Shown here piece by piece: positions 1 through 38,224 of a stretch of DNA of 38,224 nucleotides. Made by a program: the position numbers and the translations under genes. The notes below the pieces were generated by a model. The model saw only the letters and a program-made list of their open reading frames with translations. It was not told the DNA's origin and searched no databases. Numbering within the stretch: the stretch's first letter is position 1; each line of letters starts with the position of its first letter. This DNA comes from a virus, in the IMG/VR virus record IMGVR_UViG_3300042902_000101, positions 1 to 38,224 of that record. One strand, given 5' to 3'.

Positions 1-120
1 GCAGCAGCGGACAAAGCAGCAGCGGACAAAGCAGCAGCGGACAAAGCAGCAGCGGACAAAGCAGCAGCGGACAAAGCAGCAGCGGACAAAGCAGCAGCGG
101 ACAAAGCAGCAGCGGACAAA
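1..120 (+). repeat. Perfect 15-nt tandem repeat GCAGCAGCGGACAAA x8 (same array as 38098-38217)
   Basis: Direct reading: eight identical units with no spacers, in frame inside a CDS. Confidence 0.95.
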
Positions 121-198
121 GCAGCAGAAGCGGACCTTATGGGGCCAGAAGTGCCAGCTAAAAAAGCAGAAGCTAAAAAAGCAGAAAATAAAAAATAA
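1..198 (+). CDS. 3' portion of the junction-spanning (AAADK)n repeat protein gene (5' portion at 37717..38224; nt 1-127 duplicate 38098-38224)
   Basis: Frame 1 is open from nt 1: 8 x GCAGCAGCGGACAAA (AAADK), then AEADLMGPEVPAKKAEAKKAENKK, TAA at 196-198. Same frame and same repeat as the open-ended ORF that starts at ATG 37717. Confidence 0.8.
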   Translation, partial: AAADKAAADKAAADKAAADKAAADKAAADKAAADKAAADKAAEADLMGPEVPAKKAEAKKAENKK

Positions 199-213
199 TA
201 TTTTCATATATAG

Positions 214-247
214 AAAAAACAACGTATTTTTACATACGTTGTTTTTT
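214..247 (+). terminator. Rho-independent terminator after the (AAADK)n gene
   Basis: AAAAAACAACGTAT (214-227) pairs perfectly with ATACGTTGTTTTTT (234-247). 6-nt loop and a T-run, 16 nt after the TAA stop. Confidence 0.85.
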
Positions 248-261
248 TAATATTCTACAAA

Positions 262-1623
262 ATGGACCCAAAGAAAAATTTTACTAAATACGCCATTTCT
301 TTAATCGAATTATTCGATAGAAGCATTTCTATAGATAAGCAAACGAATATCTATAAAAATGACGTCGATAATTTATACCCTAATAGGATAGAAATTGCGG
401 AAAAAAATTCGAAATCGGCTAATAGCTGCGCCAATAAATTGGGGCAATATATTTTCGGTAAGGGATTCAAAAACAAAGACAAAGAAATTAAATCCCGCGC
501 GGGTAAATTAATAGATCTTAACGATTGCTTACAATTAGTGGTCGATTCGGTAAAGACGCACCGTGGCGCTTTTATCCATTTAAACTTCGACGTAGAAGGC
601 GAAGTAAACTATTTCGACGTCCTAGATTATAAAAAATGTAGGGTTTCCAAAGTAGATTATTTAGGCTATTCGGGTAATATAATATATAAAAACTGGGCGG
701 AAAAATCTTCGATTTTCAGTTTTACAAAAACAAAAAGCAACGAGGCCCAATGGTTTTACCCATTCAATAAGAAGAACGTAACGGCCCAAAGAATAAAAGA
801 CGCCAAAGGTTCCGACAAGACTACGGACCTGGTTAGGAATTACCGCGGGCAAGTATTATTTTTTAATTTAGATAACGCTAACCAATACCCCTATGCGTGG
901 CTTTCGGGCCAAGCTATTTACGACGCCGATTCGGAATTTAGACTAGCTTTATATCGAAACAACTCTATACGAAAAGGGTTCCAAGATAAAACTATGTTTA
1001 TATTAAATGGGTTCGATAAACCAACAAAAGAAAATTTCGATAAAACTAGTAAGGAATGGCTAGGGGCGGAAAACGCCGGTAGTGTTTTCAACTTTTCGAC
1101 GCCGGAGTTTGTAGAAGATCCTACAAAGTTAATAGTCCCGATACAATTAAAATCTTCTTACGATAGTAAAAAATTCGAATTAGACGAAAAAGCCTTCGAA
1201 GACGCTATAGCAAAATGCTATTTAGATATACCAAAAGTTTTAATTAACGACCAAAACGGGGGCGTATTCGGTTCTTCTGGGTCTAGTATTGTGGAAGCGC
1301 AAAAGCTTTATTCTAACGGTACCAAATTTTTAAGGGATAAATTCGAAAATTTATTCTATGATATTTTCGATATTGAAAACGAAATTCTACCTTTGATTGC
1401 CGAAACTTCCATAGATAGTGCGGCCCAAACTAGACTACAAGCGCAAGCTACGTTAAAAGGTTCTGTAGGTGGGGTCGATTCTCTAGTAAAATTAGTAAAA
1501 TCGGTAGCCTTAAAAGAAATATCTAAAGAAAGCGCAATCGAAATTATTAAAGAAATTTACGGGGTTAGCGAAGAATTGGCTATTAAAATGATAGGCGGCG
1601 AAGTAACTACAAAAACAGAATAA
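262..1623 (+). CDS. Putative portal protein
   Basis: 453-aa ORF and the only portal-sized protein in the morphogenesis region. The N-terminal segment PNRIEIAEKNSKSANSCANKLGQYIFGKGF resembles the conserved N-terminal stretch of SPP1-type portals. No diagnostic motif verified. Confidence 0.45.
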   Translation: MDPKKNFTKYAISLIELFDRSISIDKQTNIYKNDVDNLYPNRIEIAEKNSKSANSCANKLGQYIFGKGFKNKDKEIKSRAGKLIDLNDCLQLVVDSVKTHRGAFIHLNFDVEGEVNYFDVLDYKKCRVSKVDYLGYSGNIIYKNWAEKSSIFSFTKTKSNEAQWFYPFNKKNVTAQRIKDAKGSDKTTDLVRNYRGQVLFFNLDNANQYPYAWLSGQAIYDADSEFRLALYRNNSIRKGFQDKTMFILNGFDKPTKENFDKTSKEWLGAENAGSVFNFSTPEFVEDPTKLIVPIQLKSSYDSKKFELDEKAFEDAIAKCYLDIPKVLINDQNGGVFGSSGSSIVEAQKLYSNGTKFLRDKFENLFYDIFDIENEILPLIAETSIDSAAQTRLQAQATLKGSVGGVDSLVKLVKSVALKEISKESAIEIIKEIYGVSEELAIKMIGGEVTTKTE

Positions 1624-24852: not shown

Positions 24853-24867
24853 TATAAATAAAATTAG

Positions 24868-24875
24868 TATATTTA
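24868..24875 (+). promoter_or_regulatory. -7-like box TATATTTA
   Basis: In the 56-nt gap after terL, 33 nt before ATG 24909. Confidence 0.35.
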
Positions 24876-24908
24876 CCGCAAAGAATAATTAATCTAAAAA
24901 CTAATAAC

Positions 24909-25385: not shown

Positions 25386-25959
25386 AAAATTTTTCTCTAG
25401 GAAAAAGAAATTTTTGGTTGCTAATAAAGATATTTCTAAAGACTCTACCGTCGAAGAATTATTTAATAGCGACCAAGATATTTCTTTGCTTATGGAACTT
25501 TTAACCCCTTCAAATATTATCTTCGGCAAAGAAGTAAAGCCTTTTACGAAATTCGAATTTCAAGAAGTACACGATATTTTAAATTTCCAGGAAGAAGGCA
25601 AGGTACTAGAAATAGTGGAAATATTGACAAAAAAAAATTTAAACGAAATTTTATCTATAGATTCGCAAAGTTTCCTTAAATTTGTCAAATGGATAAACGC
25701 CCAGACGAAAATAATTCTTTTGATCTATGGCACGTTACAAAGCGACGAAATGGATTCCGAAGATATGGCTTACCAAAACGCTGGGGCCGATAAATTAAAT
25801 ATCTATAAAGAAAACATGGTTTATTATTCCATAAACAAAAACCCAGCAACCTGGCCGAATATGCGAAAAGTAATTTTCGAAGAAATGTTTACTAAATTAA
25901 TGATAGATAGGGATATGAAGGGGATAAATAAAAAATATATTAAAAGTTTAAAGAAATAA
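25351..25959 (+). CDS. Hypothetical protein (basic N-terminus)
   Basis: 202-aa ORF. ATG 25351 overlaps the upstream gene by 35 nt. Confidence 0.6.
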   Translation: MPKRPQFLKRFKKFFSRKKKFLVANKDISKDSTVEELFNSDQDISLLMELLTPSNIIFGKEVKPFTKFEFQEVHDILNFQEEGKVLEIVEILTKKNLNEILSIDSQSFLKFVKWINAQTKIILLIYGTLQSDEMDSEDMAYQNAGADKLNIYKENMVYYSINKNPATWPNMRKVIFEEMFTKLMIDRDMKGINKKYIKSLKK

Positions 25960-25960
25960 A

Positions 25961-26443
25961 ATGGTCGAAATTTGGAAAAGAATAACCGAACTTTTAAACG
26001 CGTCGAACGACTGCGGGCTTTGCTTTGAATTTATAGGGGCCGGGCGTGCCGACTACTTTAACAATTTCAAACTTCGAACCGGTAAAGAATGTTGCGTATA
26101 TCTTGGACTTCTTAAGTTCGGGGGCCGTTCTGGTTTTACGGACCAAGGCCAGGGATCTATAAAAACATACGATAATTTAACTTTCGAAGTAGTCGTAGGC
26201 TTACCTTCTACTTTAGATATTCAATTCTATAATGAAAACCCGAATATCGACGTAGCCGAGTCTAAATATATTAAATACATACAACCGCTTATAAATTGCC
26301 TTGGCGATTCGTTTGTCCTAGATTGCGTAGAATTTCCAGATATGGAAGTTTCCGAATGGTCGTGGGACGTTTTACTTAATTACCAAGATTTCAATATAGA
26401 CGGTATAAAAATAAAAGGAACTTTTAAAAGATATGTTAACTGA
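25961..26443 (+). CDS. Hypothetical structural protein (neck/connector candidate)
   Basis: 160-aa ORF in the morphogenesis block. The call rests on position only. Confidence 0.55.
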   Translation: MVEIWKRITELLNASNDCGLCFEFIGAGRADYFNNFKLRTGKECCVYLGLLKFGGRSGFTDQGQGSIKTYDNLTFEVVVGLPSTLDIQFYNENPNIDVAESKYIKYIQPLINCLGDSFVLDCVEFPDMEVSEWSWDVLLNYQDFNIDGIKIKGTFKRYVN

Positions 26444-26870
26444 TGCCCAAATAGAAAACGTAGTTTCGGTAGTAGTTCAAAAAGTTCTATTTCCTAAATT
26501 CGATCAGCTAGGTATGAACGCTTCCGGAAATTGGAAGGAAACAACCAGGGCCGAAGGCAATACTATAATAGGGCCAGCTTATACGGAACAACTAGCAAAA
26601 GGAAGGGCGCCAGGTGCGCGGCCCCCGATTTCGCCTATTGAAAAATGGGTCGAAGCCAAACTAGGACTTTCGGGAAAACAAGCCACTTCCGTAGCTTGGG
26701 CGATAAGTATAAACATTGCGAAGAAGGGGACGACCTGGCACCAAAAAGGGGGGACCGATATTCTGGAAGTTTTAGAAAGTAAAGAAGTTTACGACCTTTT
26801 TGTAAAAACCTACGCGTTAGAAGTGAAAGCGATATTATCGGACAACTTTCGAAGAAGTTTAAAAGTATAA
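26433..26870 (+). CDS. HK97 gp10-like neck/tail-completion protein (tentative)
   Basis: GRAPGARPPISPIEKWVEAKLG...VAWAISINIAKKGT resembles the conserved core of the HK97 gp10 family. Confidence 0.5.
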   Translation: MLTDAQIENVVSVVVQKVLFPKFDQLGMNASGNWKETTRAEGNTIIGPAYTEQLAKGRAPGARPPISPIEKWVEAKLGLSGKQATSVAWAISINIAKKGTTWHQKGGTDILEVLESKEVYDLFVKTYALEVKAILSDNFRRSLKV

Positions 26871-26883
26871 AAATATAAAAAAT

Positions 26884-28014
26884 ATGGCTATTTTATTCGA
26901 CGTACCACTAACCCAAAATTTACTACACCTAGTAGGGGTAAACAATATAATTAAATTCTATACCGATAGTCTTCTGGATATTAAAAACGCGGAAATTACA
27001 ATACCGAACAACGGCGACCCGATAGTAAAGACTATATTTCCGGGACCTTCTAATAAATTTTATTATAACTTCAAAGAAATTATATCTATAATTATAAATA
27101 AAGACGGCTTTAAAGACGATATAGATTTTTCGCTAGTTGTGAACGACTGGACGGCGAAGGCTTACCTTTACGAACAAATAGAAATTAAAATTAATTTTGT
27201 AGATACGTCTTTCGAAACGGAAATATTAGATACTAGTTGGGTAAACATGATTTTACAACACTATAACTACAGATTTAACTACTATTCGGAACTTTTAAGG
27301 GGTACGGCTTGGCTTCTGAAGCCAAAGCACCCGGAAAAGAAACACCGTATAAAATACTGGAAGGGGTACCCTTTTAGTTTTGGGTTTTATACCGGCCAAT
27401 TTGCTGGGGGGACTGCAAACGGACAACTTCAAGGGGGCGGCCCTATTCAATATTTTTTTAATTTTCCTACCGTAACGCGTTTAGTAGTTTCGGACGGCTT
27501 AAACGAAAATATAAATTTCCTATATAACGAAAATAGTTATAAAATGGTTATCGGCGGTACGGGGTTTAAATTCAATTTTACGCGTATTGTTAGCGATTGC
27601 TTAAAAAATAATAATATATATATTAAATGGCTAAATTCTTTTGGCGATTTCGACTATTGGCTTTTTAAAAGGGCCGATACTGAAAGGAAAATTAAGGGCC
27701 TCGGCGTAATAGATAACGATTTCGGAAACTTCGAAGGGACTACTTCGCCATTCCAAAATATAGGGGTTAACGGTTCGGATTCTTTGAAAGTCTTTGAAAC
27801 TTTTAGCGAAGACGATATGGTCTATATCGCCGATATGTTTATTAGTCCGAAGATATATTTATTTAGAGGTTTACCGAACCAAGTAAGCACCCAAGACGAT
27901 TGGGTCGAAATTACTCTAGCTTCTGGGGGTAATCAAATAGTTAGTAGGAAATACCAAAATACGCAACTAGAATTAGAATTTAACATGCCGGACCTTATAA
28001 CTAGAAAATTATAG
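26884..28014 (+). CDS. Putative tail-tip/baseplate protein
   Basis: 376-aa beta-rich ORF directly upstream of the large fibre-like protein. No diagnostic motif. Confidence 0.55.
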   Translation: MAILFDVPLTQNLLHLVGVNNIIKFYTDSLLDIKNAEITIPNNGDPIVKTIFPGPSNKFYYNFKEIISIIINKDGFKDDIDFSLVVNDWTAKAYLYEQIEIKINFVDTSFETEILDTSWVNMILQHYNYRFNYYSELLRGTAWLLKPKHPEKKHRIKYWKGYPFSFGFYTGQFAGGTANGQLQGGGPIQYFFNFPTVTRLVVSDGLNENINFLYNENSYKMVIGGTGFKFNFTRIVSDCLKNNNIYIKWLNSFGDFDYWLFKRADTERKIKGLGVIDNDFGNFEGTTSPFQNIGVNGSDSLKVFETFSEDDMVYIADMFISPKIYLFRGLPNQVSTQDDWVEITLASGGNQIVSRKYQNTQLELEFNMPDLITRKL

Positions 28015-28016
28015 AT

Positions 28017-30704
28017 ATGAGTTATATTTTATATATCAATAGCGTACAAATAGACCTAAAAGAAGCTAGGGAAATTTCACTTTCTAAACAAGTGGACGAT
28101 ATAGCCGTACTATCTACTAGACAAACTAATTTTTCTAAACAATTAAAAATAAAAAATACCGCGGCAAACGAAAAGGCCCTAGGCTATTTGGGGGTCGTGG
28201 GTAATTCTTCGAATACGCCATATACTAAAAACGACGCCGATTTACTAGACGCCGAAAGCGGGGAATTTATAATATATAAAGGCTGGGCCGTTATTCTATC
28301 CAGGGACGAAGAATATTATACTATCGCAATTTATGACGGTATGATAGATTTCTATAAAGCGATAGATAACAAGAAAATGAGCGATTTGGACCTAACCGAA
28401 ATAAACCATTTTAGGACTATTACCACTATCCAGGATTCAATACTTAATAATTTACCTTACAAATATATTATTGCAGACTATAACGGCGGCGGTACTATTT
28501 TAAACGAGCCTACAATAAACGCCGACTATCTTATCCCGGCGGTTAGTATTCCGTGGCTTTTTGCAAAGATTTTCGAAACTTACGGCTTTACTTTTTCCGG
28601 CGAATTATTTAACTACGACGATTATAAGGATCTTTGGCTAACTTACCCAAAAGGTACGACGGTAGGACTAGACCAGACCACGCCACTTCTGGACGTTACT
28701 AGTTCTTCGGCCATATATAGTGGGGGCCAAACTTTGGTACCAATAGACTTAAATACCTACCTTTTAACTGCGGGACTTATCCAATACACGGCCCCGAATA
28801 ACTACGAATTTTATATTTGCCCGAGCGAAGGACAAATTCGCGTTTCTTACCATACATATAGGTTCGAAGCTACCTATATTTATAACTCGGGACAAATAGA
28901 ACAAGATACTTTTACTTGCCCTTTGATTGTAGAAAATAGAAATTCGAATACTTTTTATACAATATTATTTAACCAGGAATTATATATACCCGTTCAAGAA
29001 GGGGACGAACTATATTTTTATGCCTCGGCAATTTTTAGACAAAACGCCGGAGGCTACGCCGATTATGTTATCGGGGACGGGAATTTTACGCTAGATCTAT
29101 ACCAGGGCGAAGCGATAGATTTTAAGGAAGCTTTCGATAAATTGTTAATCAAAGATTTTATAAACGAAATTTTGTGGCTTTTTTGCCTAACACCTTTTAA
29201 AAATAGATATACTACGAATATACATTTTCTTACTTTTAACGAACGAGTACTTACCCCAATGGCTAGCGACTGGTCCGAAAAATTTATTCGTTTGAAATCC
29301 GAAAAATATATCTTCGGGGCCTACGGAAAAGAAAATACACTAAAACATAAATATAACGCAAGTAACGCCGATTATAACGACGCTTTTTTCTCTATCGAAA
29401 ACGAAAATTTAAAAGATTTCAAGACGGTAATACAATCTAAATTTTATACGCCGGAATATTTAAAGGAAATAACGGTAGACGATAGGCTGGTTAAGACTTA
29501 TAAATTATGGAATAAAGAAATAAAAGATAATAGCGCCGTAAAATATAAAGCCCTAGATAACCGTTTTTATTTTATAAAATATACCGATACGGTACTAACT
29601 AACCCGGTAACTATTGCTAGTAGTGCTTTGGGTGCTAGTGCGGTATTTAATTCTTTACCTTTAGAACGAAACGACGGGCTAACCTTTAGCGAAATTAAAA
29701 GAAAATGGTATTCTAAACTAGGCTACGTTTTGAATAAAACGAAACTTTTAGAAATACAAGTTTATTTAAACAAAAACGATTTCCAAAATATAGACTTTAC
29801 AGAAAAAATATATTTGGAACAATTAGGCGGGTCTTTTTTATTAAATAAAGTTTCGAATTTTGTACCTAATAAACCTACTACCGTGCAAGTTCTGAAGATA
29901 AACCAAACGGAATTAATAGAAACGGAGTTCGGCCCAGGTGGCGGGACCGGAATAACTACGCTAGTGCATGATATAACGCTGGAAGCCGAAGTACCAACTA
30001 ACTACGATTTTAATATTACTAACGAATTATATATCGGGGTGGTTTTAGGCCCTAACGAAGTTATTTCACAAATAGAGTTCCAAAACTATAACGGGGGCTT
30101 ATTAACAACCTTCGGCGACGATATTATCCAAGGGGCCGGAGTGGTTCAATTTGGGAATGTATTAACTTTACATTCTTTAAATATAGATAATACGTACGAC
30201 TACACGGTTACGCCCAGAATTTTTACATATAATTATCATGTTTATATTTTGAATACTTTAACAAATGTTTTAACTTTGGCTTATAATGTAGTTAAAAATT
30301 TTACTATTAATTATACGGAAGCTTGGGGCCGTTCTTTGTCTTTAAATGTTTCAAACGGTGGGCAAGATACGCAATACCTAAACAACGATTTCGAACTGAA
30401 CGCACCCTTACGACCTAACGAAGTTATTTCGCACATTATACCAATAGATTTCGACCAGGAACCTGGGCCGACTAGTGAATTTTGGGCCGTAAATATTATA
30501 GCCATGCAAATAGGGGTACAAGCTAATTTTGTGGACCAATTAGTTATAGAACCCCACAAAGTAGACGGGACGTATATTCCACCAACTGGGACGCAATACG
30601 GTTTAACAATTTTTTACGAACTTTGGGCGTATAATACTAATACTATGACTTACAGACTTATATACAACTATTGTTCTATTCAAGCAACGCTTACTTATAA
30701 TTAA
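28017..30704 (+). CDS. Putative tail fibre / host-recognition protein
   Basis: 895 aa, Asn/Tyr/Thr-rich and beta-type in composition. C-terminal internal duplication marked by PNEVIS(Q/H)I. Confidence 0.6.
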   Translation: MSYILYINSVQIDLKEAREISLSKQVDDIAVLSTRQTNFSKQLKIKNTAANEKALGYLGVVGNSSNTPYTKNDADLLDAESGEFIIYKGWAVILSRDEEYYTIAIYDGMIDFYKAIDNKKMSDLDLTEINHFRTITTIQDSILNNLPYKYIIADYNGGGTILNEPTINADYLIPAVSIPWLFAKIFETYGFTFSGELFNYDDYKDLWLTYPKGTTVGLDQTTPLLDVTSSSAIYSGGQTLVPIDLNTYLLTAGLIQYTAPNNYEFYICPSEGQIRVSYHTYRFEATYIYNSGQIEQDTFTCPLIVENRNSNTFYTILFNQELYIPVQEGDELYFYASAIFRQNAGGYADYVIGDGNFTLDLYQGEAIDFKEAFDKLLIKDFINEILWLFCLTPFKNRYTTNIHFLTFNERVLTPMASDWSEKFIRLKSEKYIFGAYGKENTLKHKYNASNADYNDAFFSIENENLKDFKTVIQSKFYTPEYLKEITVDDRLVKTYKLWNKEIKDNSAVKYKALDNRFYFIKYTDTVLTNPVTIASSALGASAVFNSLPLERNDGLTFSEIKRKWYSKLGYVLNKTKLLEIQVYLNKNDFQNIDFTEKIYLEQLGGSFLLNKVSNFVPNKPTTVQVLKINQTELIETEFGPGGGTGITTLVHDITLEAEVPTNYDFNITNELYIGVVLGPNEVISQIEFQNYNGGLLTTFGDDIIQGAGVVQFGNVLTLHSLNIDNTYDYTVTPRIFTYNYHVYILNTLTNVLTLAYNVVKNFTINYTEAWGRSLSLNVSNGGQDTQYLNNDFELNAPLRPNEVISHIIPIDFDQEPGPTSEFWAVNIIAMQIGVQANFVDQLVIEPHKVDGTYIPPTGTQYGLTIFYELWAYNTNTMTYRLIYNYCSIQATLTYN

Positions 30705-30710
30705 AAAGAT

Positions 30711-33700
30711 ATGGCAAATACTGAAATTTTAGCGCGTTTCGATATTGACGACTCGGCGATTATTACGAAAATCGCAAACAATAAAAAAGAAATAGGCGAA
30801 CTAAAAGCGGCCAACAAAGATTATATTTCCGAATATACGAAAGGACTAAAGGACGCCCAAAAGGAAATAAAAAACCAGGAAGCGAGCCAAAAGAAATTAA
30901 CGGACGAACTAAAGGCCGGAAATATTACCCAATCGGCTTACAACCAATTAATAGACGATTCAAACGCCCAAATTAAAAAGGCGCAATTCGAAGTCGTGGA
31001 ACTTGCCAAGGCCTACGAAGTAAATTCCCGCGCTATTGCGGTAAACGAAGAAAAAGTAAAAGCTTTATCTACTGAAAATAGGGGGCTTTCTACAAGTTAC
31101 CAGGCGGTTATCTTCGCCCAAAATGGCCTACTTCAAAACTACACTAGCGAAGGCAAAAGCGTACAAGAACTACGCGAAGATAACCTTAAACTAATAAAGA
31201 TTAGGAACCAGCTTGCGACGGCGACCAATGGCGAAAGCGAAGATATTAAGAAACTAAACGCGATAATAGACGAAAATACGGCGACTATCCGGGCCAATGT
31301 TTCCCAGGACGAAAAAAGAATTTTAAATATAGGTAACTATCGCGAAGCGTTCGAAGGCGCTTTGGCTTCCTTTAAAAATGGGGATTTCAAGGGCGGACTG
31401 GATCAATTACGCGAAGCCGGCGCGGGCGTAGGTGCCAGCCTTCAAGGAATGGTAGCCCAGGCTAGGGCCTTTATCGCCACACCTTTAGGGGCTGCAATCG
31501 CTGCAATCGTTGCAATCGGTGCGACTACTAAATTTATATTCGATTTTAACGAAGGTTTAAAAGAATCGAATCTTCTATTACGTAGTTTTGGGGTAAGTTC
31601 CCAAGAAACTTCGAAAGTACGTTCCGAGATAGAAGCCACGGCTAAAACTTTCGATAAATCGTTCGAAGAAATAGCCGAAAAAGCTAATTCGCTTTCGAAA
31701 GCGTACGGTATTTCGATGTCCGAAGCTAATACCGTAATTCGCGAAGGGTTAGCAACCGGAGGCGCACAAAACGAAGAATTTTTGGATTCCTTGGGGGAAT
31801 ATGACGTCTTTTTCCAGAAGGCTGGCTTTTCGGCCCGAGAATTTACCAATATACTAAACGAAGGTAGTACTTTAGGTATTTACGCCGATAAATTGCCCGA
31901 TGCTATTAAGGAATCCGGCCTAGCTTTAGAAGAACAAACTAAAACAACTAGGGACGCTTTAGTAAATGCTTTTGGGGCTTCTTTTACGGACGATATTCTT
32001 AAAAAGGTAAGAACTGGCGAAATAACTACAAAAGACGCCCTATCTTCAATAGCAGCAGAAGCGGAAAAGGCGAACCTTAACCAGCAGCAACTAGCACAAC
32101 TTACCGCCGACGTCTTCAAAGGGGCCGGCGAAGATGCGGGCGGGGCTTTAAATGTTTTAAAGGCTATTTCTGGCGCGGCAAAGACTGAACTAGACGCCGT
32201 GGCGAAATCGCAACTTAATTTAGCAAAAGCTAACGAAGAATATAACAAAGAACAAGCGAGGCTTTTCGAAATCGAAGGTTTCGGGACCACTTGGGCAAAT
32301 ATAAAAACCAAAGCGTTAGAATTTTTTACTTCGGCGCTAAAATATATTGGCGACTTTAGGGACGCTATACAACCTATTATAAATATAGTCGGGGTATTAC
32401 TGGCGAACGCTTGGGCCTATTTGTCCGGCGTAGTTTCTACTTCTTTTAGTGTTATTTTAGGAGGCTTTAAAATACTCGGGAATGTAATTTCTACTTTTGT
32501 AAATGTAGTTACGGCTTTATTTAGCGGGGATTTAAAAGGCGCACTAAACGCGCTAACGCAAGGGTTTTTAAATTTTGGTAACATTATAACGACCACTTTT
32601 GCAAAAATAAAAAATACTATTTTAGGTACCCTTCAAGATATTGTTTCTAACGTGGCCCCTATATTGGAAGTTTTAGGCGTGGACGTCGATAAGCTTACCA
32701 AAAAACTGGAAAACTTCAAAACTAAAATACCGGAATCTAAAGACGTTAATATTTCCGGCTCGGTAGAAGAAACTAAAGTAACTAAAAATGTAACTAAAGA
32801 TTCCTTAAGCCCGGAACAAATAGCAGCTTCTAAAAAATCCCTAGAAGATGCAAGGAAGAAAATAGAAGAAGCTAAAAAAGCGGAACAAGAAGCGCTTAAA
32901 GAACAACTAGAATTAGCAAAAAATTTAGTAGATGAAAAAATAAGGCTTGCCGGTACCGAATTAAATAATTATATTTTAAATAATTCTTCTAAACTGGCAA
33001 ACGAAAAAGTACTATCCCAGGCGTTAATCGAAGAAGAAAAAACCAGGCTTCAAACTATCGCCGATTCGCGAAAAAAAATCCTAGACGACGAACTTAAGGC
33101 GAAACAAAATAATATAAACCAGGAACTAGAAGCCGAGGCTATAAAATCGCAATCTTTATCCGGTACGGCGTTAGAAAATTCTAATTTATATATCGAAACC
33201 AAAAGAAACGAATTGGCCCTTCTTACTTCGGAGTATTACGGTAAAGACTTACAACTTAAGCAAGAAACCGAAGCGGCTAAAAATTCGATAGATAAATTAT
33301 ATAGCGACCAACTAGCGGAACAAAAACAACTTACCCAGGCTTTAGCCTACCAAGAAGAATTAATTACTTTAGAAGCTAAAGGCGCTACCGAGTTCGAAAT
33401 ACGTTCGGCACAATTGGACCAACAATACGAAATGGAGGCCCAAAAGTACCTAGACGATATTTATAATAAGTTTAATTTAAAAATCGAGGCGGACGAAGAA
33501 AATTATACTATCCAGCAAGAACTAGACCTAGTAAAAGAAGAACTAGAAAACCAAATACTAGTAGAAAAAGACGCGAATAAACTAGCGACGTTAAACAATA
33601 ATCTAGCCCAAATAAACCAACTAGAACAAAAGTACGCGAAGAATAAAGAAGAAATAACCAAAGCGTCCGAGGCGGCAAGGTTAAACTCAATTAGTTCTAC

Positions 33701-34295
33701 ACTTGGGACCGTTCAAGGTTTATTTAAAGAAAATACCGCGGCTTTCAAAGTTATAGCGATAGCGCAAGCTACAATAGATACCTACAAAAGTGCGGTATCG
33801 GCATACGCTGCGGGTCTATCTATAGGGGGGCCAGCCGGTCTAGTAGCCGGTCCGGTTGCTGCGGGTGCTGCGGTTGCCGCGGGTCTTTTAAATGTCGCTA
33901 AAATATCCGGGGCCAAATTCCAACGCGGCGGGGTGGCTAGGGGTGCTTCGCATGCCCAGGGCGGAATACCTGGAATAGTGGCGGGGCAAACGCCTATAGA
34001 GTTCGAAGGCGGCGAAGCTATTATAAATAAAAAATCTACGGCAAAATATGCGGGTCTTTTATCCGAAATTAACCAGGACCAAGGGGGCGTAGCTTTTGCC
34101 GCTGGGGGGTTAATTGGGTCTTCGCTTCCTTCAATACAAAACCAAATAACGCAAGGGCTAAATACGGACGTCTTGGCCGAAGTTATAGGTTTGGCCGTAG
34201 AACGAGGTTCGGCAATAGGTACGGCGTCCGGTGCGGCTTCTGGAATAGCAGAACGAACAACAAATATAAATATAGAAAATGGGGCAAGCTTCTAA
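30711..34295 (+). CDS. Tape-measure-like protein
   Basis: 1194 aa with long coiled-coil stretches. There are three Gly/Ala-rich hydrophobic segments (for example FIATPLGAAIAAIVAIGATT and GLSIGGPAGLVAGPVAAGAAVAAGLL). These features are typical of tape-measure proteins. Confidence 0.65.
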   Translation: MANTEILARFDIDDSAIITKIANNKKEIGELKAANKDYISEYTKGLKDAQKEIKNQEASQKKLTDELKAGNITQSAYNQLIDDSNAQIKKAQFEVVELAKAYEVNSRAIAVNEEKVKALSTENRGLSTSYQAVIFAQNGLLQNYTSEGKSVQELREDNLKLIKIRNQLATATNGESEDIKKLNAIIDENTATIRANVSQDEKRILNIGNYREAFEGALASFKNGDFKGGLDQLREAGAGVGASLQGMVAQARAFIATPLGAAIAAIVAIGATTKFIFDFNEGLKESNLLLRSFGVSSQETSKVRSEIEATAKTFDKSFEEIAEKANSLSKAYGISMSEANTVIREGLATGGAQNEEFLDSLGEYDVFFQKAGFSAREFTNILNEGSTLGIYADKLPDAIKESGLALEEQTKTTRDALVNAFGASFTDDILKKVRTGEITTKDALSSIAAEAEKANLNQQQLAQLTADVFKGAGEDAGGALNVLKAISGAAKTELDAVAKSQLNLAKANEEYNKEQARLFEIEGFGTTWANIKTKALEFFTSALKYIGDFRDAIQPIINIVGVLLANAWAYLSGVVSTSFSVILGGFKILGNVISTFVNVVTALFSGDLKGALNALTQGFLNFGNIITTTFAKIKNTILGTLQDIVSNVAPILEVLGVDVDKLTKKLENFKTKIPESKDVNISGSVEETKVTKNVTKDSLSPEQIAASKKSLEDARKKIEEAKKAEQEALKEQLELAKNLVDEKIRLAGTELNNYILNNSSKLANEKVLSQALIEEEKTRLQTIADSRKKILDDELKAKQNNINQELEAEAIKSQSLSGTALENSNLYIETKRNELALLTSEYYGKDLQLKQETEAAKNSIDKLYSDQLAEQKQLTQALAYQEELITLEAKGATEFEIRSAQLDQQYEMEAQKYLDDIYNKFNLKIEADEENYTIQQELDLVKEELENQILVEKDANKLATLNNNLAQINQLEQKYAKNKEEITKASEAARLNSISSTLGTVQGLFKENTAAFKVIAIAQATIDTYKSAVSAYAAGLSIGGPAGLVAGPVAAGAAVAAGLLNVAKISGAKFQRGGVARGASHAQGGIPGIVAGQTPIEFEGGEAIINKKSTAKYAGLLSEINQDQGGVAFAAGGLIGSSLPSIQNQITQGLNTDVLAEVIGLAVERGSAIGTASGAASGIAERTTNINIENGASF

Positions 34296-34572
34296 AAGAA
34301 TAATTTCCGGAATTAAAAATATAGATAAGGTTTCCGAAGGGCTATTTAATTACAAAAACCCTTCGGAAAAAATCGAAGCTTTAGCTACCGAACGGGCTAA
34401 AATTTGCGTATCTTGCCCGAACTATAAAGACGAACCTATCAAACAATTGCAGCTAGACGACGAAATTAAAGTTTTATCTAAAAAAATGTGTACTTTGTGC
34501 GGTTGCGTCTTATCTTTAAAATTAAGGACTAGAATAATATCTACTAACCAATGCCCGCTAAAAAATGACTAA
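34279..34572 (+). CDS. Small Cys-rich (zinc-binding-like) protein
   Basis: 97 aa with CVSC...CTLCGC...C. Overlaps the tape-measure 3' end by 17 nt. Confidence 0.55.
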   Translation: MGQASKRIISGIKNIDKVSEGLFNYKNPSEKIEALATERAKICVSCPNYKDEPIKQLQLDDEIKVLSKKMCTLCGCVLSLKLRTRIISTNQCPLKND

Positions 34573-34837
34573 ATACGACTTTCTAAAAGATAAGCTAGTT
34601 TTATTAAAAGTATTTATTAATATTGGTTTGGTTTCGCCAAACATATATACCAACTTAAAAATAGTTGGTTTTTACCAGGCTTTAGGTGGTAAAAATAAAA
34701 TGTTAAACTACCAGACTACGGCGGACCATTTTAGACTACAACCCCGCCAAATAATGAATATTTTAAAAGAAATGCAAGAAACGGTAGATTTACCGCCAAA
34801 CTCTATTATAGAATCTTTTAAAATATCCCAGATTTAA
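34565..34837 (+). CDS. Hypothetical protein (possible HTH at the C-terminus)
   Basis: 90 aa. TADHFRLQPRQIMNILKEMQ is HTH-like but weak. Confidence 0.5.
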   Translation: MTKYDFLKDKLVLLKVFINIGLVSPNIYTNLKIVGFYQALGGKNKMLNYQTTADHFRLQPRQIMNILKEMQETVDLPPNSIIESFKISQI

Positions 34838-34840
34838 AAA

Positions 34841-34860
34841 TTTGTAATACCTATTACAAA
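34841..34860. promoter_or_regulatory. Inverted repeat TTTGTAATA-cc-TATTACAAA (operator- or terminator-like)
   Basis: 9-bp arms, 3 nt after the stop of 34565..34837 and 21 nt upstream of the next -7 box. Confidence 0.4.
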
Positions 34861-34881
34861 CGAAGTATTTAGGTTTTTATA

Positions 34882-34889
34882 TACTTTTA
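34882..34889 (+). promoter_or_regulatory. -7-like box TACTTTTA upstream of the protease/capsid genes
   Basis: Same box sequence as P1, 23 nt before ATG 34913. Confidence 0.45.
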
Positions 34890-34912
34890 CAAATATTATA
34901 AATATAAAATAA

Positions 34913-35986
34913 ATGTTTGACGTACAAATTTACGGCGAAATAGTCCCTTTTCAAGATTCTTGGATTTTAGAAAATGGCTATTTTAATTTATCGGCTTTAA
35001 ACGAACAACTAGCAAAAGCAGAAGGAAAACCTTTACTTGTAAGAATTAATTCTTACGGCGGCGACGTAGAAGAAGGTTTCGCTATTTATCAAGCCTTAAG
35101 AAGATACGCGACTGAAAACAAAGTCGAAATAACTACGCGATGCGACGGCCGATGCGCTTCTATTGCAACGGTTATTTTCTTGGCTGGGGATAAAAGAATC
35201 GTTAACGAATATATTAGCCCTTTCGTGCATAACGCTTGGACTTATGCCGTAGGCGATGCAAAAGAATTGCAAAGACTTTCTTCGGACCTGGAAGCGGTAA
35301 ATATCCAAATCGCTAACCATTACGCTTCGCATACGAATTTAACCGTAGAAGAAGCTAGGGAACTAATGGACGCGGAAACGGCTATTTCTTCCGAAGAATG
35401 TCTAAATATTAGGTTCGCTACTGAAATCGAAAAAGTAGATAAGCCTAAAGCCCTTTTAAAATTTAAAAACCAAATATCTAACAAAATGAGTAACAAGAAA
35501 AAAGCAAAAAGTATTTTCGCTAAAATTGAAGCTTTACTAGAAGGTAAATCCTTTAAAAACCTAGACGTCTTTACGGAAACGAACGACGTCCTAGATTTTT
35601 ACGAATTAGGCGAAGGGGACGTACCAAAAGTAGGCGACAAAGCGAAGTACAAGGAAGACCCAGCAGAAGGGACCTTCAAACTAGCAGACGCTAAAACGCA
35701 ATACAAATTCGAAGCGGGCGTACTAACTGAAATCGTAGAAGATTCTGGGGACGATGCAGCGGCGAAAGACGCGGAAATAGCAGATCTAAAAGCACAAATA
35801 GAAACTTTAAAAGGTTCTACTTCGGCTTCTGAAAAAGACCAAGAGATTAAAGCCTTAAAGGCGAAAATCCAATCGTTTAAAAATTTAAGTTCTGACTTCA
35901 AAGCAGCACTAGAAAACGACGGTAAATCTTCTGAAAAGAAGAAAAAAGAGAAAAAAGAATTTACTAACTTTAAATTTGTACGATAA
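34913..35986 (+). CDS. ClpP-family (S14) prohead protease fused to a scaffold-like C-terminal domain
   Basis: RINSYGGDVEEGFAIYQALR, GRCASIATVIFLAGDKR (Ser) and PFVHNAW (His). The C-terminal half is a charged coiled coil (AKDAEIADLKAQIETLK). Confidence 0.85.
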   Translation: MFDVQIYGEIVPFQDSWILENGYFNLSALNEQLAKAEGKPLLVRINSYGGDVEEGFAIYQALRRYATENKVEITTRCDGRCASIATVIFLAGDKRIVNEYISPFVHNAWTYAVGDAKELQRLSSDLEAVNIQIANHYASHTNLTVEEARELMDAETAISSEECLNIRFATEIEKVDKPKALLKFKNQISNKMSNKKKAKSIFAKIEALLEGKSFKNLDVFTETNDVLDFYELGEGDVPKVGDKAKYKEDPAEGTFKLADAKTQYKFEAGVLTEIVEDSGDDAAAKDAEIADLKAQIETLKGSTSASEKDQEIKALKAKIQSFKNLSSDFKAALENDGKSSEKKKKEKKEFTNFKFVR

Positions 35987-37086
35987 TGCCAGGATTTAAT
36001 TTCCCAGGTTTAGACGCGGTACTAACTGCGGCTAATACCATTTCGAAAGCAAGAAAAGCCAACATATCAGAAGTAGTTTTCCAAGAAATAATGGAAACTT
36101 CAGACTTCACTAGAGAACATTCGATAGCTACGGGAATCGAAAGTAACGATATGGTGCCAATTATGGAAAAGACCAAGCAATGGGGGTTCTTGAAAAAGAG
36201 CGATACCGCGGCTGGTTGTAATTACAACGAATGTACAATAGGCGATACCGCTTCTAATGTATTTTGGAACCCAACGAAATATGATTGCGAAATCATTATT
36301 TGTATGACTGACCCAGGATTTACAAGAGATTTTAGAGCCTTCTGGAATATCAATTGTGAAAAATACGATAACGATATAGATAACGTATTGATTGCGTATA
36401 TTGTTGATCGTGTTAAAGAACACCACAACGAGTCGTTATGGCGTATAGCTTACTTCGATTTCAAAACGAACGCAACGGCGGGTTACGCTGGAATAGACGG
36501 TCTATTCGTTCAATGGTTAGCAATTGCTACGCCAGCAAATACGGCCCAAAGGGTTGTAATTACAGAAAATGCGGAAACTACTTTCGTAGACCAATTAAAT
36601 TTAGCGGCCGATTCTGGTAAGAATTATTTAAAAGCAATGTACGACAAAATGCTTTTAAACTTTCCCCACATGATGTCGAAAGCTGGTTTAAAATTCGAAC
36701 TTACTCGCGAATTGGCGGTTAATTACTTGCACTGGTTGCAAGAAAACAAAGAAGTTAATTGTTGTTTCAATATGAACCACGACGGTACTACTTCTAGCGG
36801 CTATTCTTTAGTAAATTTGAACTACCTAGGTATTCCAATTATTATTAGGAATGAATGGTCGGATATTATCAAATTTTTGATAAATCCAGGCGATACGGCT
36901 TACGATAAACCACATAGAGGGGTTTTAACGTACGACGGTAATAAATCGGTCGGAACTTGCGACGAAAACCACTTAAAAGGGTTTAAAGTTATTTACGACG
37001 AAGTAACCGAAAAGTTACATATTCGCGCGAAAACTACGGTAGACGTAAAAGTCCCGCTAGAAAAAGATTTCATTTTAGCAATTTAA
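35986..37086 (+). CDS. Major capsid protein (HK97-fold expected)
   Basis: 366-aa ORF that starts in the TAATG overlap with the protease/scaffold gene, the canonical position for the capsid protein. Confidence 0.7.
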   Translation: MPGFNFPGLDAVLTAANTISKARKANISEVVFQEIMETSDFTREHSIATGIESNDMVPIMEKTKQWGFLKKSDTAAGCNYNECTIGDTASNVFWNPTKYDCEIIICMTDPGFTRDFRAFWNINCEKYDNDIDNVLIAYIVDRVKEHHNESLWRIAYFDFKTNATAGYAGIDGLFVQWLAIATPANTAQRVVITENAETTFVDQLNLAADSGKNYLKAMYDKMLLNFPHMMSKAGLKFELTRELAVNYLHWLQENKEVNCCFNMNHDGTTSSGYSLVNLNYLGIPIIIRNEWSDIIKFLINPGDTAYDKPHRGVLTYDGNKSVGTCDENHLKGFKVIYDEVTEKLHIRAKTTVDVKVPLEKDFILAI

Positions 37087-37104
37087 TTTTAATACAGAAA
37101 AGAT

Positions 37105-37707
37105 ATGCCAACTAGTACATGTGGTACAATTATAGATAATTTAGTCTATAATTGTACCGATAAATCGACCGGAGGACTTCAACAAGAAATTAAGCTTGTA
37201 AACTTATCTACTATTAAAGATAATTTAGCGGATTTTACCGTTTCGGATAGTTCAACCCAGCACACAATAACGGCTTTTGCCGGTACTGCGGCGAACTTAA
37301 ACGCGGTTGCAATTGAAGGAATCCCAAACAAGCAGCTTTTAAAAGCTGGCTTTGCTACGACGGAAACCGATTTCGGTACGTTCGTAACTCACAACGTAGA
37401 CTTATGGTCGCAAGCCGTAACCGAAAAGTCTATGCTTTTCCTAAAATCTTTAGTTAACGGCGCCGAAGTTGTCGCTTTTATTAGACAAAAATCGGGCGGA
37501 CCGACTGGCGAAGAAACTTATTGGGTTTATGGTTTTAGCAACGGCTTAAAATTAGGCGATGCGGCTTTTAACTCGGCGGAAAATAGCGGTTCTTTTATTA
37601 TACCGATTATTTCGAAGGAACCAGACCTAGAGCCTACGCTTCCTTATAGATTGTTGTTAACGGACGTTGCGACAACTAAAACTTTCTTCGATGCTTTAAC
37701 CGTCTAA
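37105..37707 (+). CDS. Putative major tail (tube) protein
   Basis: 200-aa beta-rich ORF after the capsid gene. Pattern ...HNVDLW...GAEVVAFIRQKSG...YWVYGFSNGLKLG is reminiscent of siphovirus tube proteins. Tentative. Confidence 0.45.
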   Translation: MPTSTCGTIIDNLVYNCTDKSTGGLQQEIKLVNLSTIKDNLADFTVSDSSTQHTITAFAGTAANLNAVAIEGIPNKQLLKAGFATTETDFGTFVTHNVDLWSQAVTEKSMLFLKSLVNGAEVVAFIRQKSGGPTGEETYWVYGFSNGLKLGDAAFNSAENSGSFIIPIISKEPDLEPTLPYRLLLTDVATTKTFFDALTV

Positions 37708-37716
37708 TCCTAGACC

Positions 37717-38224
37717 ATGACAAAGCACGAATTAGCAAACAAACAAAGCGCCGACGTTAGACACAACGGCGCAATGTTTGATTTGTTCCAAAAATTCCTA
37801 GTAGAAGATTGGGGTTCTGTCCCTTCTGGTTGCTTTGGTTGCGATTTTAATAAACATTTCGACAACTGGGCCAAGCCTTACCGGGAAAAAACCAAAATAA
37901 AAAATAAAAAAATAGAAATTATGGCAAAAGGTTATTTATTAGTAGACGATACGTATAAAACTTTTTTTAAAGGCGAAGTATTAAGCAAAAATAGTTCGGA
38001 CAAAGAATGGGCCGCGTTTGTTAACGACAACAAAGACCAAAAAGAAAGCAGAAAGAAATTATTTAGGCAATTGCCTTTTTCTTTAGATAAAGTTAATGCA
38101 GCAGCGGACAAAGCAGCAGCGGACAAAGCAGCAGCGGACAAAGCAGCAGCGGACAAAGCAGCAGCGGACAAAGCAGCAGCGGACAAAGCAGCAGCGGACA
38201 AAGCAGCAGCGGACAAAGCAGCAG
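37717..38224 (+). CDS. 5' portion of the (AAADK)n repeat protein gene; runs off the window end and continues at nt 1 (unique gene 37717..38097 + 1..198, 192 aa)
   Basis: ATG 37717 (MTKHELANKQ...SGCFGCDFNKHF...LPFSLDKVN), then AAADK x8. No stop before the window end. Absent from the ORF track because it is open-ended. Confidence 0.8.
   Translation, partial: MTKHELANKQSADVRHNGAMFDLFQKFLVEDWGSVPSGCFGCDFNKHFDNWAKPYREKTKIKNKKIEIMAKGYLLVDDTYKTFFKGEVLSKNSSDKEWAAFVNDNKDQKESRKKLFRQLPFSLDKVNAAADKAAADKAAADKAAADKAAADKAAADKAAADKAAADKAA
38098..38224 (+). repeat. 15-nt tandem repeat x8 plus 7 nt; exact duplicate of nt 1-127 (circular-assembly overlap)
   Basis: Base-by-base comparison of the two window ends. 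Confidence 0.95.

What the first reader, a model, noticed from the sequence alone, without database searches (positions are those of the whole stretch)
37717..38224. Perfect 15-nt tandem array encoding an (AAADK)n single-helix spacer, with copy number unresolved by the assembly
Seen: at least eight base-perfect copies of GCAGCAGCGGACAAA lie in frame inside a 192-aa protein. The N-terminal domain carries GCFGC and the tail is a basic AKKAEAKKAENKK. Established: (EAAAK)n is the classic rigid alpha-helical linker, stabilised by i/i+4 salt bridges, and AAADK repeats place K(i) and D(i+4) in the same register. Inference: the repeat forms a stiff helix of about 40 residues, about 6 nm at 1.5 A rise per residue, that acts as a spacer or ruler. 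Base-perfect units imply recent expansion or contraction by slippage, so the length may vary within the population. The 120-nt array is shorter than the 127-nt overlap, so the true copy number could be higher than 8. The gene sits between the -7 box at 34882 and the terminator at 214-247, together with the protease, capsid and tube genes. This suggests an abundant virion protein.
Basis: partly seen in the sequence, partly recalled or inferred. Interest (0 to 1): 0.65.

Follow-up and report, generated by a model that had tools for sequence, protein, structure and literature searches.

The report
Tandem-repeat linker in phage morphogenesis protein
A perfect 15-base repeat coding (AAADK)n really does sit inside a small phage assembly-operon protein and its copy number was collapsed by the assembler, but comparison with relatives shows it is one of many come-and-go repeat insertions in a loosely constrained tail, not a calibrated molecular ruler.

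Summary
Observation confirmed. The window's first and last 127 nt are identical and consist only of GCAGCAGCGGACAAA x8.47. The gene reads in frame across that junction and gives a protein of at least 192 aa. Because the assembly overlap coincides exactly with the array, the true array is very probably longer, at 9 or more units.

The protein belongs to an undescribed family with at least 258 clusters at 50% identity. In TCUEAP1-like Flavobacteriales siphophages the gene always lies between a tail-tube-fold gene and the portal gene. The family has a conserved basic N-domain of about 120 aa with an invariant CxxC and no fold match. This is followed by a tail of 5-171 aa that is acidic proximally and ends in a Lys-rich tip or a HeH motif.

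At least five relatives carry different perfect or near-perfect arrays at the same place: ETEET, DDEPKQ, EKAEA, GAE and AGAGDTGAGD. Some of these cannot form a helix. A near-identical sister contig lacks the array altogether. So neither length nor helicity is conserved, and the segment behaves as a slippage-prone tether rather than a ruler. AlphaFold draws the AAADK segment as one helix, but at pLDDT about 46.

(AAADK)n itself is common. It occurs in at least 119 IMG/VR contigs in unrelated proteins. Virion presence was not tested. Interest is modest.

The parts
37717..38097 (+). Codons 1-127: conserved basic N-domain of the target protein. Invariant residues are R15, P36, C39-x-x-C42, F116, L119 and P120. 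pI is 9.3.
   Evidence: ORF and translation. Family alignments A3 and A4. AF2 pLDDT about 90 over residues 1-120. No Pfam, PHROG or NCBIfam family. No PDB or BFVD fold match.
38098..38224 (+). 15-nt tandem array GCAGCAGCGGACAAA x8 plus GCAGCAG, in frame as (AAADK)8-AA. This is the 3' copy of the assembly overlap.
   Evidence: TRF 100% matches, 8.5 copies. Sequence. Frame.
1..127 (+). The same 127-nt array, as the 5' copy of the assembly overlap. It is one genomic locus with 38098-38224 and is not a second array.
   Evidence: Exact terminal overlap of 127 nt. TRF.
128..198 (+). Remainder of the gene: E-A-D-L-M-G-P-E-V-P-A-K-K-A-E-A-K-K-A-E-N-K-K and a TAA stop. It contains the conserved acidic DLMG motif and the Lys-rich tip.
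   Evidence: Translation across the junction. The same DDLMG/DDLLG-plus-basic ending occurs in L003, L004, P0004 and P0038.
208..253 (+). A/T-flanked hairpin (stem 214-247), a probable intrinsic terminator after the gene.
   Evidence: RNAfold -16.5 kcal/mol, z = -5.4. Not flagged by the G+C-demanding consensus scan.
37105..37707 (+). Upstream neighbour X (200 aa): a tail-tube-fold protein.
   Evidence: AF2 pTM 0.75. The top ~40 Foldseek PDB hits are almost all tail-tube/Hcp-fold proteins, including SPP1, 80alpha and lambda gpV. phrog_21217, unknown function.
35986..37086 (+). Probable major capsid protein (366 aa).
   Evidence: Its position after the protease. tblastn match to the equivalent gene of Elizabethkingia phage TCUEAP1.
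34913..35986 (+). ClpP-type head maturation protease with a long C-terminal extension.
   Evidence: phrog_94 at 9e-49 and Pfam CLP_protease at 1e-18.
262..1623 (+). Portal protein, the downstream neighbour in every relative.
   Evidence: phrog_11226 at 3e-38. Synteny.

Best explanation
The array is a genuine in-frame product of replication slippage. It lies inside the fast-evolving C-terminal tail of a small, conserved, so far undescribed morphogenesis-operon protein of TCUEAP1-like Flavobacteriales siphophages.

The protein has three modules:
1. A basic N-domain of about 120 aa with an invariant CxxC. This is the constrained, presumably partner-docking part.
2. A charged low-complexity linker whose sequence and length are almost free to vary.
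3. A distal tip. In this phage the tip is a conserved acidic DLMG motif followed by a Lys-rich tail. In other members it is a HeH (Rho_N/SAP-like) motif.

Inference: the two alternative tips are the kind of module that binds a polyanion, most simply DNA.

Because the linker is only a tether, in-frame tandem duplications are tolerated there and arise repeatedly. Here they produced an Ala-rich, helix-prone (AAADK)n segment of at least 40 residues, which would span at least 6 nm if fully helical. This segment replaces the amphipathic acidic stretch seen in relatives. It lengthens the tether but is not a length-calibrated ruler.

The assembler (k=127) broke the circular or permuted genome exactly at the array. 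This means the array exceeds 127 nt, so the copy number is 9 or more and unknown.

Shown: the array, the junction, the family architecture, the synteny and the recurrent independent arrays. Inferred: slippage as the mechanism, the tether function, polyanion binding by the tip, and virion or assembly association.
For: Array and junction.

Family size and conserved N-domain: 36 close homologues and 258 representatives at E<=1e-3. The invariant residues include CxxC.

Tail variability: length 5-171 aa, median 44. The proximal part is net acidic in 77% of tails and the last 15 aa are net basic in 70%. Median N-domain pI is 9.4. A HeH-like module occurs in 28 of 156 tails, and a Lys/Arg-rich tip occurs in 84 of the 127 tails without one. 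Pfam Rho_N or SAP was found in 3 of 61 members.

Independent arrays at the same site:
- L003: 15 nt x8.6 at 99%, coding ETEET. Its near-identical sister L004 lacks the array.
- TCUEAP1: 18 nt x4.5 at 100%, coding DDEPKQ.
- L009/P0006: 15 nt x6.8 at 98%, coding EKAEA.
- P0084 (AGAGDTGAGD) and P0002 (GAE).

Strict synteny of TMP, protease, MCP, tube-fold gene, target, portal and DUF6712 holds down to 24% identity.

The tube fold of the neighbour is supported. AF2 models residues 121-168 as one helix.

A second, unrelated IMG/VR contig is also cut exactly at an array that equals its 55-nt overlap. A Logan contig ends inside the GAE array. Both show that such arrays break assemblies.
Against: - No experiment or annotation gives the protein's function, and no fold or profile match exists for the N-domain.
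- Helicity is predicted only at pLDDT about 46.
- No conspecific contig exists in the collections searched, so copy-number polymorphism of this particular array is untested.
- Recurrent expansion at one site could equally mean selection for length variability rather than mere tolerance.
- Only 6 of 167 representative tails carry an exact tandem amino-acid repeat of 3 or more copies, so most members do without repeats.
Confidence: 0.65

Rival explanations
1. (AAADK)n is a stiff single alpha-helix whose length sets a functional distance, as a spacer or ruler, in an abundant virion protein. Copy number tunes that distance.
For: K(i)-D(i+4) spacing and 60% Ala follow from the sequence. AF2 draws a continuous helix over residues 121-168. 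A 62%-identical relative has another Ala-rich 5-aa array, EKAEA/AKAEA, at the same place. The gene sits in the structural operon.
Against: - The tail is 5-171 aa in the family, and about 13 representatives have under 20 aa.
- Homologous positions carry ETEET and Pro-containing DDEPKQ arrays, whose estimated helicity is about 0.
- L004 lacks what L003 has.
- pLDDT is about 46.
- A rough Lifson-Roig estimate gives AAADKx8 about 0.5 against 0.7 for EAAAKx8 at 0 C, and much lower at physiological temperature (parameters recalled from memory).
- Charge density is 40%, far below that of ER/K single-helix domains.
Confidence: 0.12
2. Contingency locus. The tail is exposed on the particle, for example decorating the tube or head. 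Slippage-driven length or sequence variation is itself selected, for instance to vary the reach of a basic, cell-surface-binding tip or to escape recognition.
For: At least five independent arrays with different units occur at one site in one family. The units are base-perfect, implying very recent change. The array has atypical codon usage and G+C. The gene is adjacent to the tube-fold gene.
Against: Most family members have no repeats. No within-population length variants have been observed. Nothing shows surface exposure. (AAADK)n arrays also occur in internal or non-structural proteins such as a scaffolding protein and a methyltransferase-like protein, so such arrays need no special selection.
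Confidence: 0.18
3. Assembly artefact. The array, or the join across it, is not real. This would apply if circularisation through a low-complexity k-mer had fused two unrelated ends.
For: The contig ends lie entirely in a repeat equal to a typical maximal k of 127. This is a classic source of false joins.
Against: - The reading frame is continuous.
- The 3' piece ends with the family's DLMG-plus-Lys-rich C-terminus.
- The gene order target then portal then DUF6712 across the join is the same as in all relatives, where the join is internal to contigs.
- A 127-mer of pure array must exist in the reads.
Confidence: 0.03
4. The protein is a tail assembly chaperone, which is the usual gene after the tube gene. 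Its acidic linker would coat the tape measure.
For: It lies immediately downstream of a tube-fold gene. It is small and has an acidic stretch in the tail.
Against: The N-domain is basic (median pI 9.4) and the whole protein has pI 9.2. The gene is followed by the portal gene, not the tape measure, which lies upstream of the protease. There is no fold or profile match to known chaperones. Other small ORFs upstream of the TMP (24909-26870) are positional candidates for that role.
Confidence: 0.05

Closest known systems
Designed (EAAAK)n helical linkers and Ala-based E/K peptides (PMC6988741; Marqusee-Baldwin type peptides, from my own knowledge)
   Same: A five-residue period, three Ala per unit, and one acidic plus one basic residue giving i/i+4 ion pairs. 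Both are helix-prone.
   Different: Asp replaces Glu and has lower helix propensity. The ion pair runs K(i) to D(i+4) rather than E(i) to K(i+4). This sequence is natural, made by slippage, and of unresolved length. Helicity here is only a low-confidence prediction.
Gene 17 of Elizabethkingia phage TCUEAP1 (MN732896; PMC7237756), a hypothetical protein
   Same: The same family by profile comparison (hhalign 91.5%). The same position between the ~200-aa gene and the portal gene. A perfect tandem array in the same linker.
   Different: About 20% identity. The unit is 18 nt coding DDEPKQ, which contains proline and is not helical. The tip is a HeH motif instead of a Lys-rich tail. No function or proteomics has been reported.
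(AAADK)n / (AAAEK)n arrays in other viral proteins (IMG/VR)
   Same: The identical peptide repeat is found in frame in at least 119 contigs, with up to 24 units. 41 of 144 arrays are DNA-perfect. One unrelated contig has the identical 15-nt unit and is likewise cut at the array.
   Different: The host proteins are unrelated. They include a phrog_206 scaffolding protein, a phrog_21498 methyltransferase-like protein, TMP-like giants and an H4-like histone. This shows the repeat is a generic insert and not specific to this family.
TolA domain II, and the SSB-type 'folded domain, variable linker, short conserved tip' architecture (from my own knowledge, not tested here)
   Same: TolA has long Ala/Lys/Glu/Asp-rich helical repeats, including AAAEKAAADKK-like stretches, that span a distance. 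SSB has a basic folded domain, a linker of highly variable length and composition, and a short acidic-hydrophobic tip. This resembles the N-domain, linker and DDLLG/DLMG arrangement here.
   Different: There is no sequence or fold relationship. The genes here are in a phage structural operon. Many family members end in a basic tip or HeH instead of an acidic tip.

Membership tests
Slippage-generated in-frame tandem repeat (coding mini/microsatellite) | Head-to-tail identical units, with unit length a multiple of 3, inside an ORF | tested here: met
   15 nt x8.47 at 100% identity, in frame.
Slippage-generated in-frame tandem repeat (coding mini/microsatellite) | Copy-number differences between close relatives or within a population | tested here: inconclusive
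   No conspecific contig was found. Indirect support comes from L003 having an array where its sister L004 has none. L013 breaks in a GAE array that L015 resolves at 3.7 copies.
Rigid (EAAAK)n-type helical linker | Oppositely charged residues at i/i+4 on an Ala background | tested here: met
   From the sequence: K(i)-D(i+4). The orientation is reversed relative to EAAAK, and Asp replaces Glu.
Rigid (EAAAK)n-type helical linker | Stable monomeric helix | tested here: inconclusive
   AF2 models a helix over residues 121-168 but at pLDDT about 46. A rough helix-coil estimate gives 0.5 at 0 C, against 0.7 for EAAAK.
ER/K single alpha-helix (SAH) domain | Very high density of E, R and K, well over half of the residues, with repeated i/i+4 pairs | tested here: not met
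   The repeat is 60% Ala, 20% Asp and 20% Lys, with no Glu or Arg.
Molecular ruler (length-determining protein) | Length conserved or co-varying with a structural dimension among relatives | tested here: not met
   Tail length is 5-171 aa within the family, and arrays are present or absent between sister contigs.
Tail assembly chaperone | Acidic protein encoded between the tube and tape-measure genes, often with a -1 frameshift | tested here: not met
   pI is 9.2. The downstream gene is the portal, and the TMP is upstream of the protease. I did not search systematically for a frameshift.
Small terminase | Profile match and adjacency to the large terminase | tested here: not met
   TerS (phrog_1482) is at 23032-23484, next to TerL at 23485-24852. 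The target has no such match.
Pfam HC2 (histone H1-like nucleoprotein) | Score at or above the gathering threshold | tested here: not met
   23.7 bits against a cut-off of 40. The match covers only the A/K-rich repeat.
HeH (Rho_N / SAP) motif proteins | Helix-extended-helix motif detectable by profile | tested here: not met
   The window protein has no hit. 28 of 156 family tails and TCUEAP1 gene 17 do have one.
Virion structural protein | Detected in purified particles | not testable with these tools
   There is only positional evidence: the conserved place in the head/tail operon. The TCUEAP1 paper has no proteomics.

The most novel reading that the evidence does not exclude
The tail of this undescribed, universally syntenic protein is an evolvable, length-tunable tether on the particle of Flavobacteriales siphophages. 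Under this reading, recurrent independent tandem-repeat expansions at one site are selected. They would adjust the reach or exposure of a polyanion-binding tip (Lys-rich or HeH) anchored through a novel CxxC domain near the tube/portal. This would make it a phage contingency locus acting on a structural protein.
Probability: 0.15. Interest if true: 0.55.

Novelty: new member of a known kind. Interest (0 to 1): 0.3.

Why it matters
There are two practical points.

First, the 'circular' contig is closed through a repeat longer than k. The gene length and genome length are therefore lower bounds. Any annotation will miss or truncate this gene, because it is split across the contig ends.

Second, the finding draws attention to an unannotated protein family that is a fixed part of the morphogenesis operon in a poorly studied phage group infecting Chryseobacterium and Elizabethkingia-type hosts. 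The family's tail is a natural example of how freely linkers evolve by slippage.

As biology, an in-frame low-complexity repeat in a linker is ordinary. The helical-ruler idea, which would have been the interesting part, is not borne out by comparison with relatives.

Tried and rejected
- **Family libraries.** Pfam, PHROGs and NCBIfam gave nothing on the protein or its N-domain, apart from a sub-threshold HC2 hit on the repeat.
- **Solved and predicted structures.** PDB sequence search with a family profile found nothing. Foldseek of the AF2 model against PDB and BFVD gave no hit at E<1e-3; the long helix only attracts ribosomal L29.
- **Cultured phages.** tblastn of the N-domain against 50,697 cultured phages found no match. 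TCUEAP1 was reached only through the capsid gene and a profile comparison.
- **Looking for the same phage with another copy number.** The exact 30-nt repeat in IMG/VR hit only an unrelated contig. JGI metagenomes gave one distant locus. GTDB genomes gave none.
- **Functional assignments rejected.** Small terminase. Tail assembly chaperone, because the protein is basic and has the wrong neighbour.
- **Scaffold.** A scaffold role was considered unlikely. The gene lies downstream of the capsid gene, and the protease already carries a long C-terminal extension. I did not test this.
- **Literature.** A search for 'AAADK' returned nothing relevant.
- **'DDLL' tip.** I examined it as a family-wide motif. 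It is present only in the window's clade and a few others, in 7 of 167 tails.

Full report
**1. The observation**

The window begins and ends with the same 127 nt. Tandem Repeats Finder reports each copy as a period-15 array of 8.5 units with 100% matches and the consensus GCAGCAGCGGACAAA. The base before 38098 and the base after 127 both break the period, so the periodic run is exactly 127 nt: eight units plus GCAGCAG.

Removing one copy of the overlap and reading from the ATG at 37717 gives a single ORF of 192 codons ending at window position 198. It has three parts:
- a 127-residue N-terminal part with GCFGC at residues 38-42;
- (AAADK)8;
- AAEADLMGPEVPAKKAEAKKAENKK.

The array is 61% G+C in a 37% G+C genome. 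It uses GCA, the least-used Ala codon in the large ORFs of this genome. It is the only long perfect array in the window. The only other sizeable one is the imperfect 9-nt collagen-like repeat at 2438-2534. One correction applies: the array is as long as the overlap, not shorter than it.

**2. What the overlap says about copy number**

This section is inference from how de Bruijn-graph assemblers work.

A 127-mer made purely of array must exist in the reads, so the array is at least 127 nt. Suppose it were exactly 127 nt. That k-mer would then be unique, and the point at which a circular path is opened would be arbitrary. The chance of opening exactly on the array would be about 1 in 38,000.

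If the array is 127 + 15n nt, its k-mers collapse into a 15-node loop entered and left through the same k-mer. The assembler then stops there, and the contig starts and ends with that k-mer. This is what is seen. The array is very probably 9 units or more, with no upper bound from these data.

Two other cases show the same behaviour. An unrelated IMG/VR contig carrying the same 15-nt unit is cut so that its 55-nt terminal overlap is exactly the array. A Logan contig of a relative ends inside the 9-nt (GAE)n array of the homologous gene, while another contig resolves 3.7 copies.

The join itself is real. The frame is continuous. The 3' piece carries the DLMG-plus-Lys-rich ending found in homologues. 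The portal gene follows, as it does in every relative where the region is internal to a contig.

**3. The genome and the neighbours**

PHROG and Pfam scans identify the following genes:

| Gene | Coordinates |
|---|---|
| TerS | 23032-23484 |
| TerL | 23485-24852 |
| Tape-measure-like protein | 30711-34295 |
| ClpP-type head protease | 34913-35986 |
| Portal | 262-1623 |
| DUF6712 protein | 1626-2195 |
| Collagen-like fibre | 2122-2964 |

A replication module is also present.

The gene after the protease (35986-37086) is the probable capsid protein. Its only match among cultured phages is the equivalent gene of Elizabethkingia phage TCUEAP1. TCUEAP1 is a siphovirus with a 47-nm head and a 172-nm tail, and no virion proteomics has been reported for it (PMC7237756).

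The 200-aa gene just upstream of the target (37105-37707) had no informative profile or PDB sequence match: phrog_21217 is of unknown function and nothing in PDB was significant. An AlphaFold model built from 120 homologues has pTM 0.75. Its top ~40 Foldseek hits in the PDB are almost all tail-tube or Hcp-fold proteins, such as SPP1 gp17.1, 80alpha and lambda gpV. E-values are about 4e-3, probabilities reach 1.0 and TM-scores are about 0.4.

Homologues of that protein occur in Chryseobacterium and Cruoricaptor genomes. This points to Flavobacteriales hosts.

**4. The protein family**

The N-terminal 127 residues found five homologues at first. With a profile they found 36. An exhaustive profile search found 258 representatives of 50%-identity clusters at E<=1e-3. 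In all of them the domain is N-terminal.

Invariant or nearly invariant positions include R15, P36, C39-x-x-C42, F116, L119 and P120. The domain is basic, with a median pI of 9.4. AlphaFold models it at pLDDT about 90 as a helical bundle with a small sheet. It has no Pfam, PHROG or NCBIfam family and no significant PDB or BFVD fold match.

The gene's position is fixed even at 24% identity. The order is tape measure, two small genes, protease, capsid, tube-fold gene, this gene, portal, DUF6712. TCUEAP1 gene 17 is a member by profile-profile comparison (91.5%) and by position.

**5. The tail and its repeats**

Everything after the conserved ...F-x-x-L-P is variable:
- Length ranges from 5 to 171 aa, with a median of 44.
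- The tail is rich in E, K and A and almost devoid of aromatic residues.
- The proximal part is net acidic in 77% of members.
- The last 15 residues are net basic in 70%.

A home-made profile finds a HeH-like module in 28 of 156 tails. Of the remaining 127, 84 end in a Lys/Arg-rich tip, as the window protein does. Pfam recognises Rho_N or SAP in three of 61 members. In the window's own clade a short acidic motif, DDLLG or DDLMG, survives near the end while everything around it changes.

Tandem DNA arrays have arisen at this site several times, each with a different unit:

| Member | Array | Peptide |
|---|---|---|
| L003 | 15 nt x8.6, 99% | ETEET |
| TCUEAP1 | 18 nt x4.5, 100% | DDEPKQ |
| L009/P0006 | 15 nt x6.8, 98% | EKAEA/AKAEA |
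| P0084 | not measured at DNA level | AGAGDTGAGD |
| P0002 | 9 nt, 3.7 copies | GAE |

L004 is nearly identical to L003 across the flanks but has ordinary non-repetitive sequence where L003 has its array. None of the window's nearest relatives (62-69% identity in the N-domain) has AAADK. In the window the array occupies the place of the amphipathic acidic stretch (STDEEK...AEIEEKK) found in relatives.

**6. Is it a stiff helix or a ruler?**

The K(i)-D(i+4) register is correct. AlphaFold draws one helix from residue 121 to 168, but at pLDDT about 46.

I also made a crude Lifson-Roig estimate without side-chain interactions, using propensities recalled from the alanine-peptide literature:

| Repeat | Estimated helicity at 0 C |
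|---|---|
| (AAADK)8 | about 0.5 |
| (EAAAK)8 | about 0.7 |
| ETEET and DDEPKQ arrays | essentially 0 |

The values for the first two fall to much lower levels at physiological temperature.

The window's segment is therefore helix-prone, but stiffness is unproven. The family shows that neither helicity nor length is conserved at this position. That argues against a ruler and for a tether whose exact length matters little.

**7. How common is (AAADK)n?**

These contain 144 arrays of up to 24 units, and 41 of them are DNA-perfect.

The host proteins are unrelated to one another. They include a phrog_206 head scaffolding protein, a phrog_21498 methyltransferase-like protein, tape-measure-like giants, small proteins with a C-terminal array, and a histone-H4-like ORF. 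The repeat is therefore a generic Ala-rich charged insert of viral proteins and not a special feature of this gene.

**8. Most likely mechanism and alternatives**

I conclude that the array is a slippage product tolerated in a weakly constrained linker. The linker connects a conserved basic docking domain to a distal tip. In the family that tip is either Lys-rich or a HeH motif, both typical polyanion or nucleic-acid binders. The binding role is inference. The protein is most likely an assembly or virion component, given its invariant place between the tube-fold and portal genes, but this is unproven.

The alternatives considered were:
- a calibrated helical ruler (about 0.12);
- a selected contingency locus on an exposed protein (about 0.18);
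- a tail assembly chaperone (about 0.05; the protein is basic and next to the wrong neighbour);
- an assembly artefact (about 0.03).

**9. Verdict**

The helical-spacer reading is plausible for this one protein, but the ruler idea is contradicted by comparative data. The repeat type is common. The most useful by-products are the recognition of an unannotated, strictly syntenic protein family and the warning that this 'complete circular' contig is closed through a collapsed repeat.

Noticed in passing
L001 8623-8682 and L002 1-55 (IMGVR_UViG_3300045988_157479): An unrelated 35.9-kb viral contig carries the identical 15-nt unit in frame (AAADK) near the C-terminus of a DNPPF methyltransferase-like ORF. 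Its 55-nt terminal overlap is again exactly the array, so that contig too is closed through a collapsed repeat.
   Followed up: partly
L047 and L107 (IMGVR_UViG_3300042318_001096 and a second contig): A 261-codon stop-to-stop ORF (222 aa from the first Met) has (AAADK)8 in its N-terminal part, followed by a clear histone H4-like histone fold (…[31 protein letters not shown]…GRTLYGFGG). It had no PHROG match.
   Followed up: no
L016-L134 (IMG/VR): In-frame (AAADK) arrays of 3 or more units occur in at least 119 viral contigs, with up to 24 units. They often sit beside AAAEK, AAADA or AAAEQ variants in large tape-measure-like or internal-virion-like proteins. 41 of 144 arrays are DNA-perfect.
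   Followed up: partly
window 23032-37707 and 262-2964: The gene order is unusual for a siphovirus: TerS, TerL, six ORFs, tape measure, two small ORFs, protease, capsid, tube-fold gene, target, portal, DUF6712, collagen-like fibre. The order is conserved in TCUEAP1 and in all related contigs.
   Followed up: partly
window 34279-34572: A 97-aa Cys-rich protein (CxxC…CxxCxC) lies directly after the tape measure. It is conserved in all relatives and has only a weak DUF6171 hit.
   Followed up: no
L013 5240-5268 versus L015 3618-3652: A Logan contig of a close relative ends inside the 9-nt (GAE)n array of the homologous gene, whereas another sample resolves 3.7 copies. This is consistent with a longer array in the first sample.
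   Followed up: partly
window 2438-2534: An imperfect 9-nt array (10.8 copies, 80% matches) codes a collagen-like G-X-Y stretch in the putative tail fibre gene 2122-2964. The listed GTG start overlaps the preceding DUF6712 gene by 74 nt, so the true start is probably later.
   Followed up: no
window 37886-37918: A run of A-tracts (gggaaaaaaaccaaaataaaaaataaaaaaatag) lies inside the target gene. It falls in the poorly conserved, low-pLDDT loop (residues ~57-72) of the N-domain and is a possible slippage-prone site.
   Followed up: no
L057 and L052 (IMG/VR): phrog_27714 proteins (tested for L057; L052 is similar by eye) carry (AAADK)5-7 in a long Pro/Ala-rich linker and end in an acidic-hydrophobic tip (…DSMLDELL, …DSMLDSLMKG). 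The architecture resembles the linker-plus-acidic-tip of SSB-type proteins.
   Followed up: no
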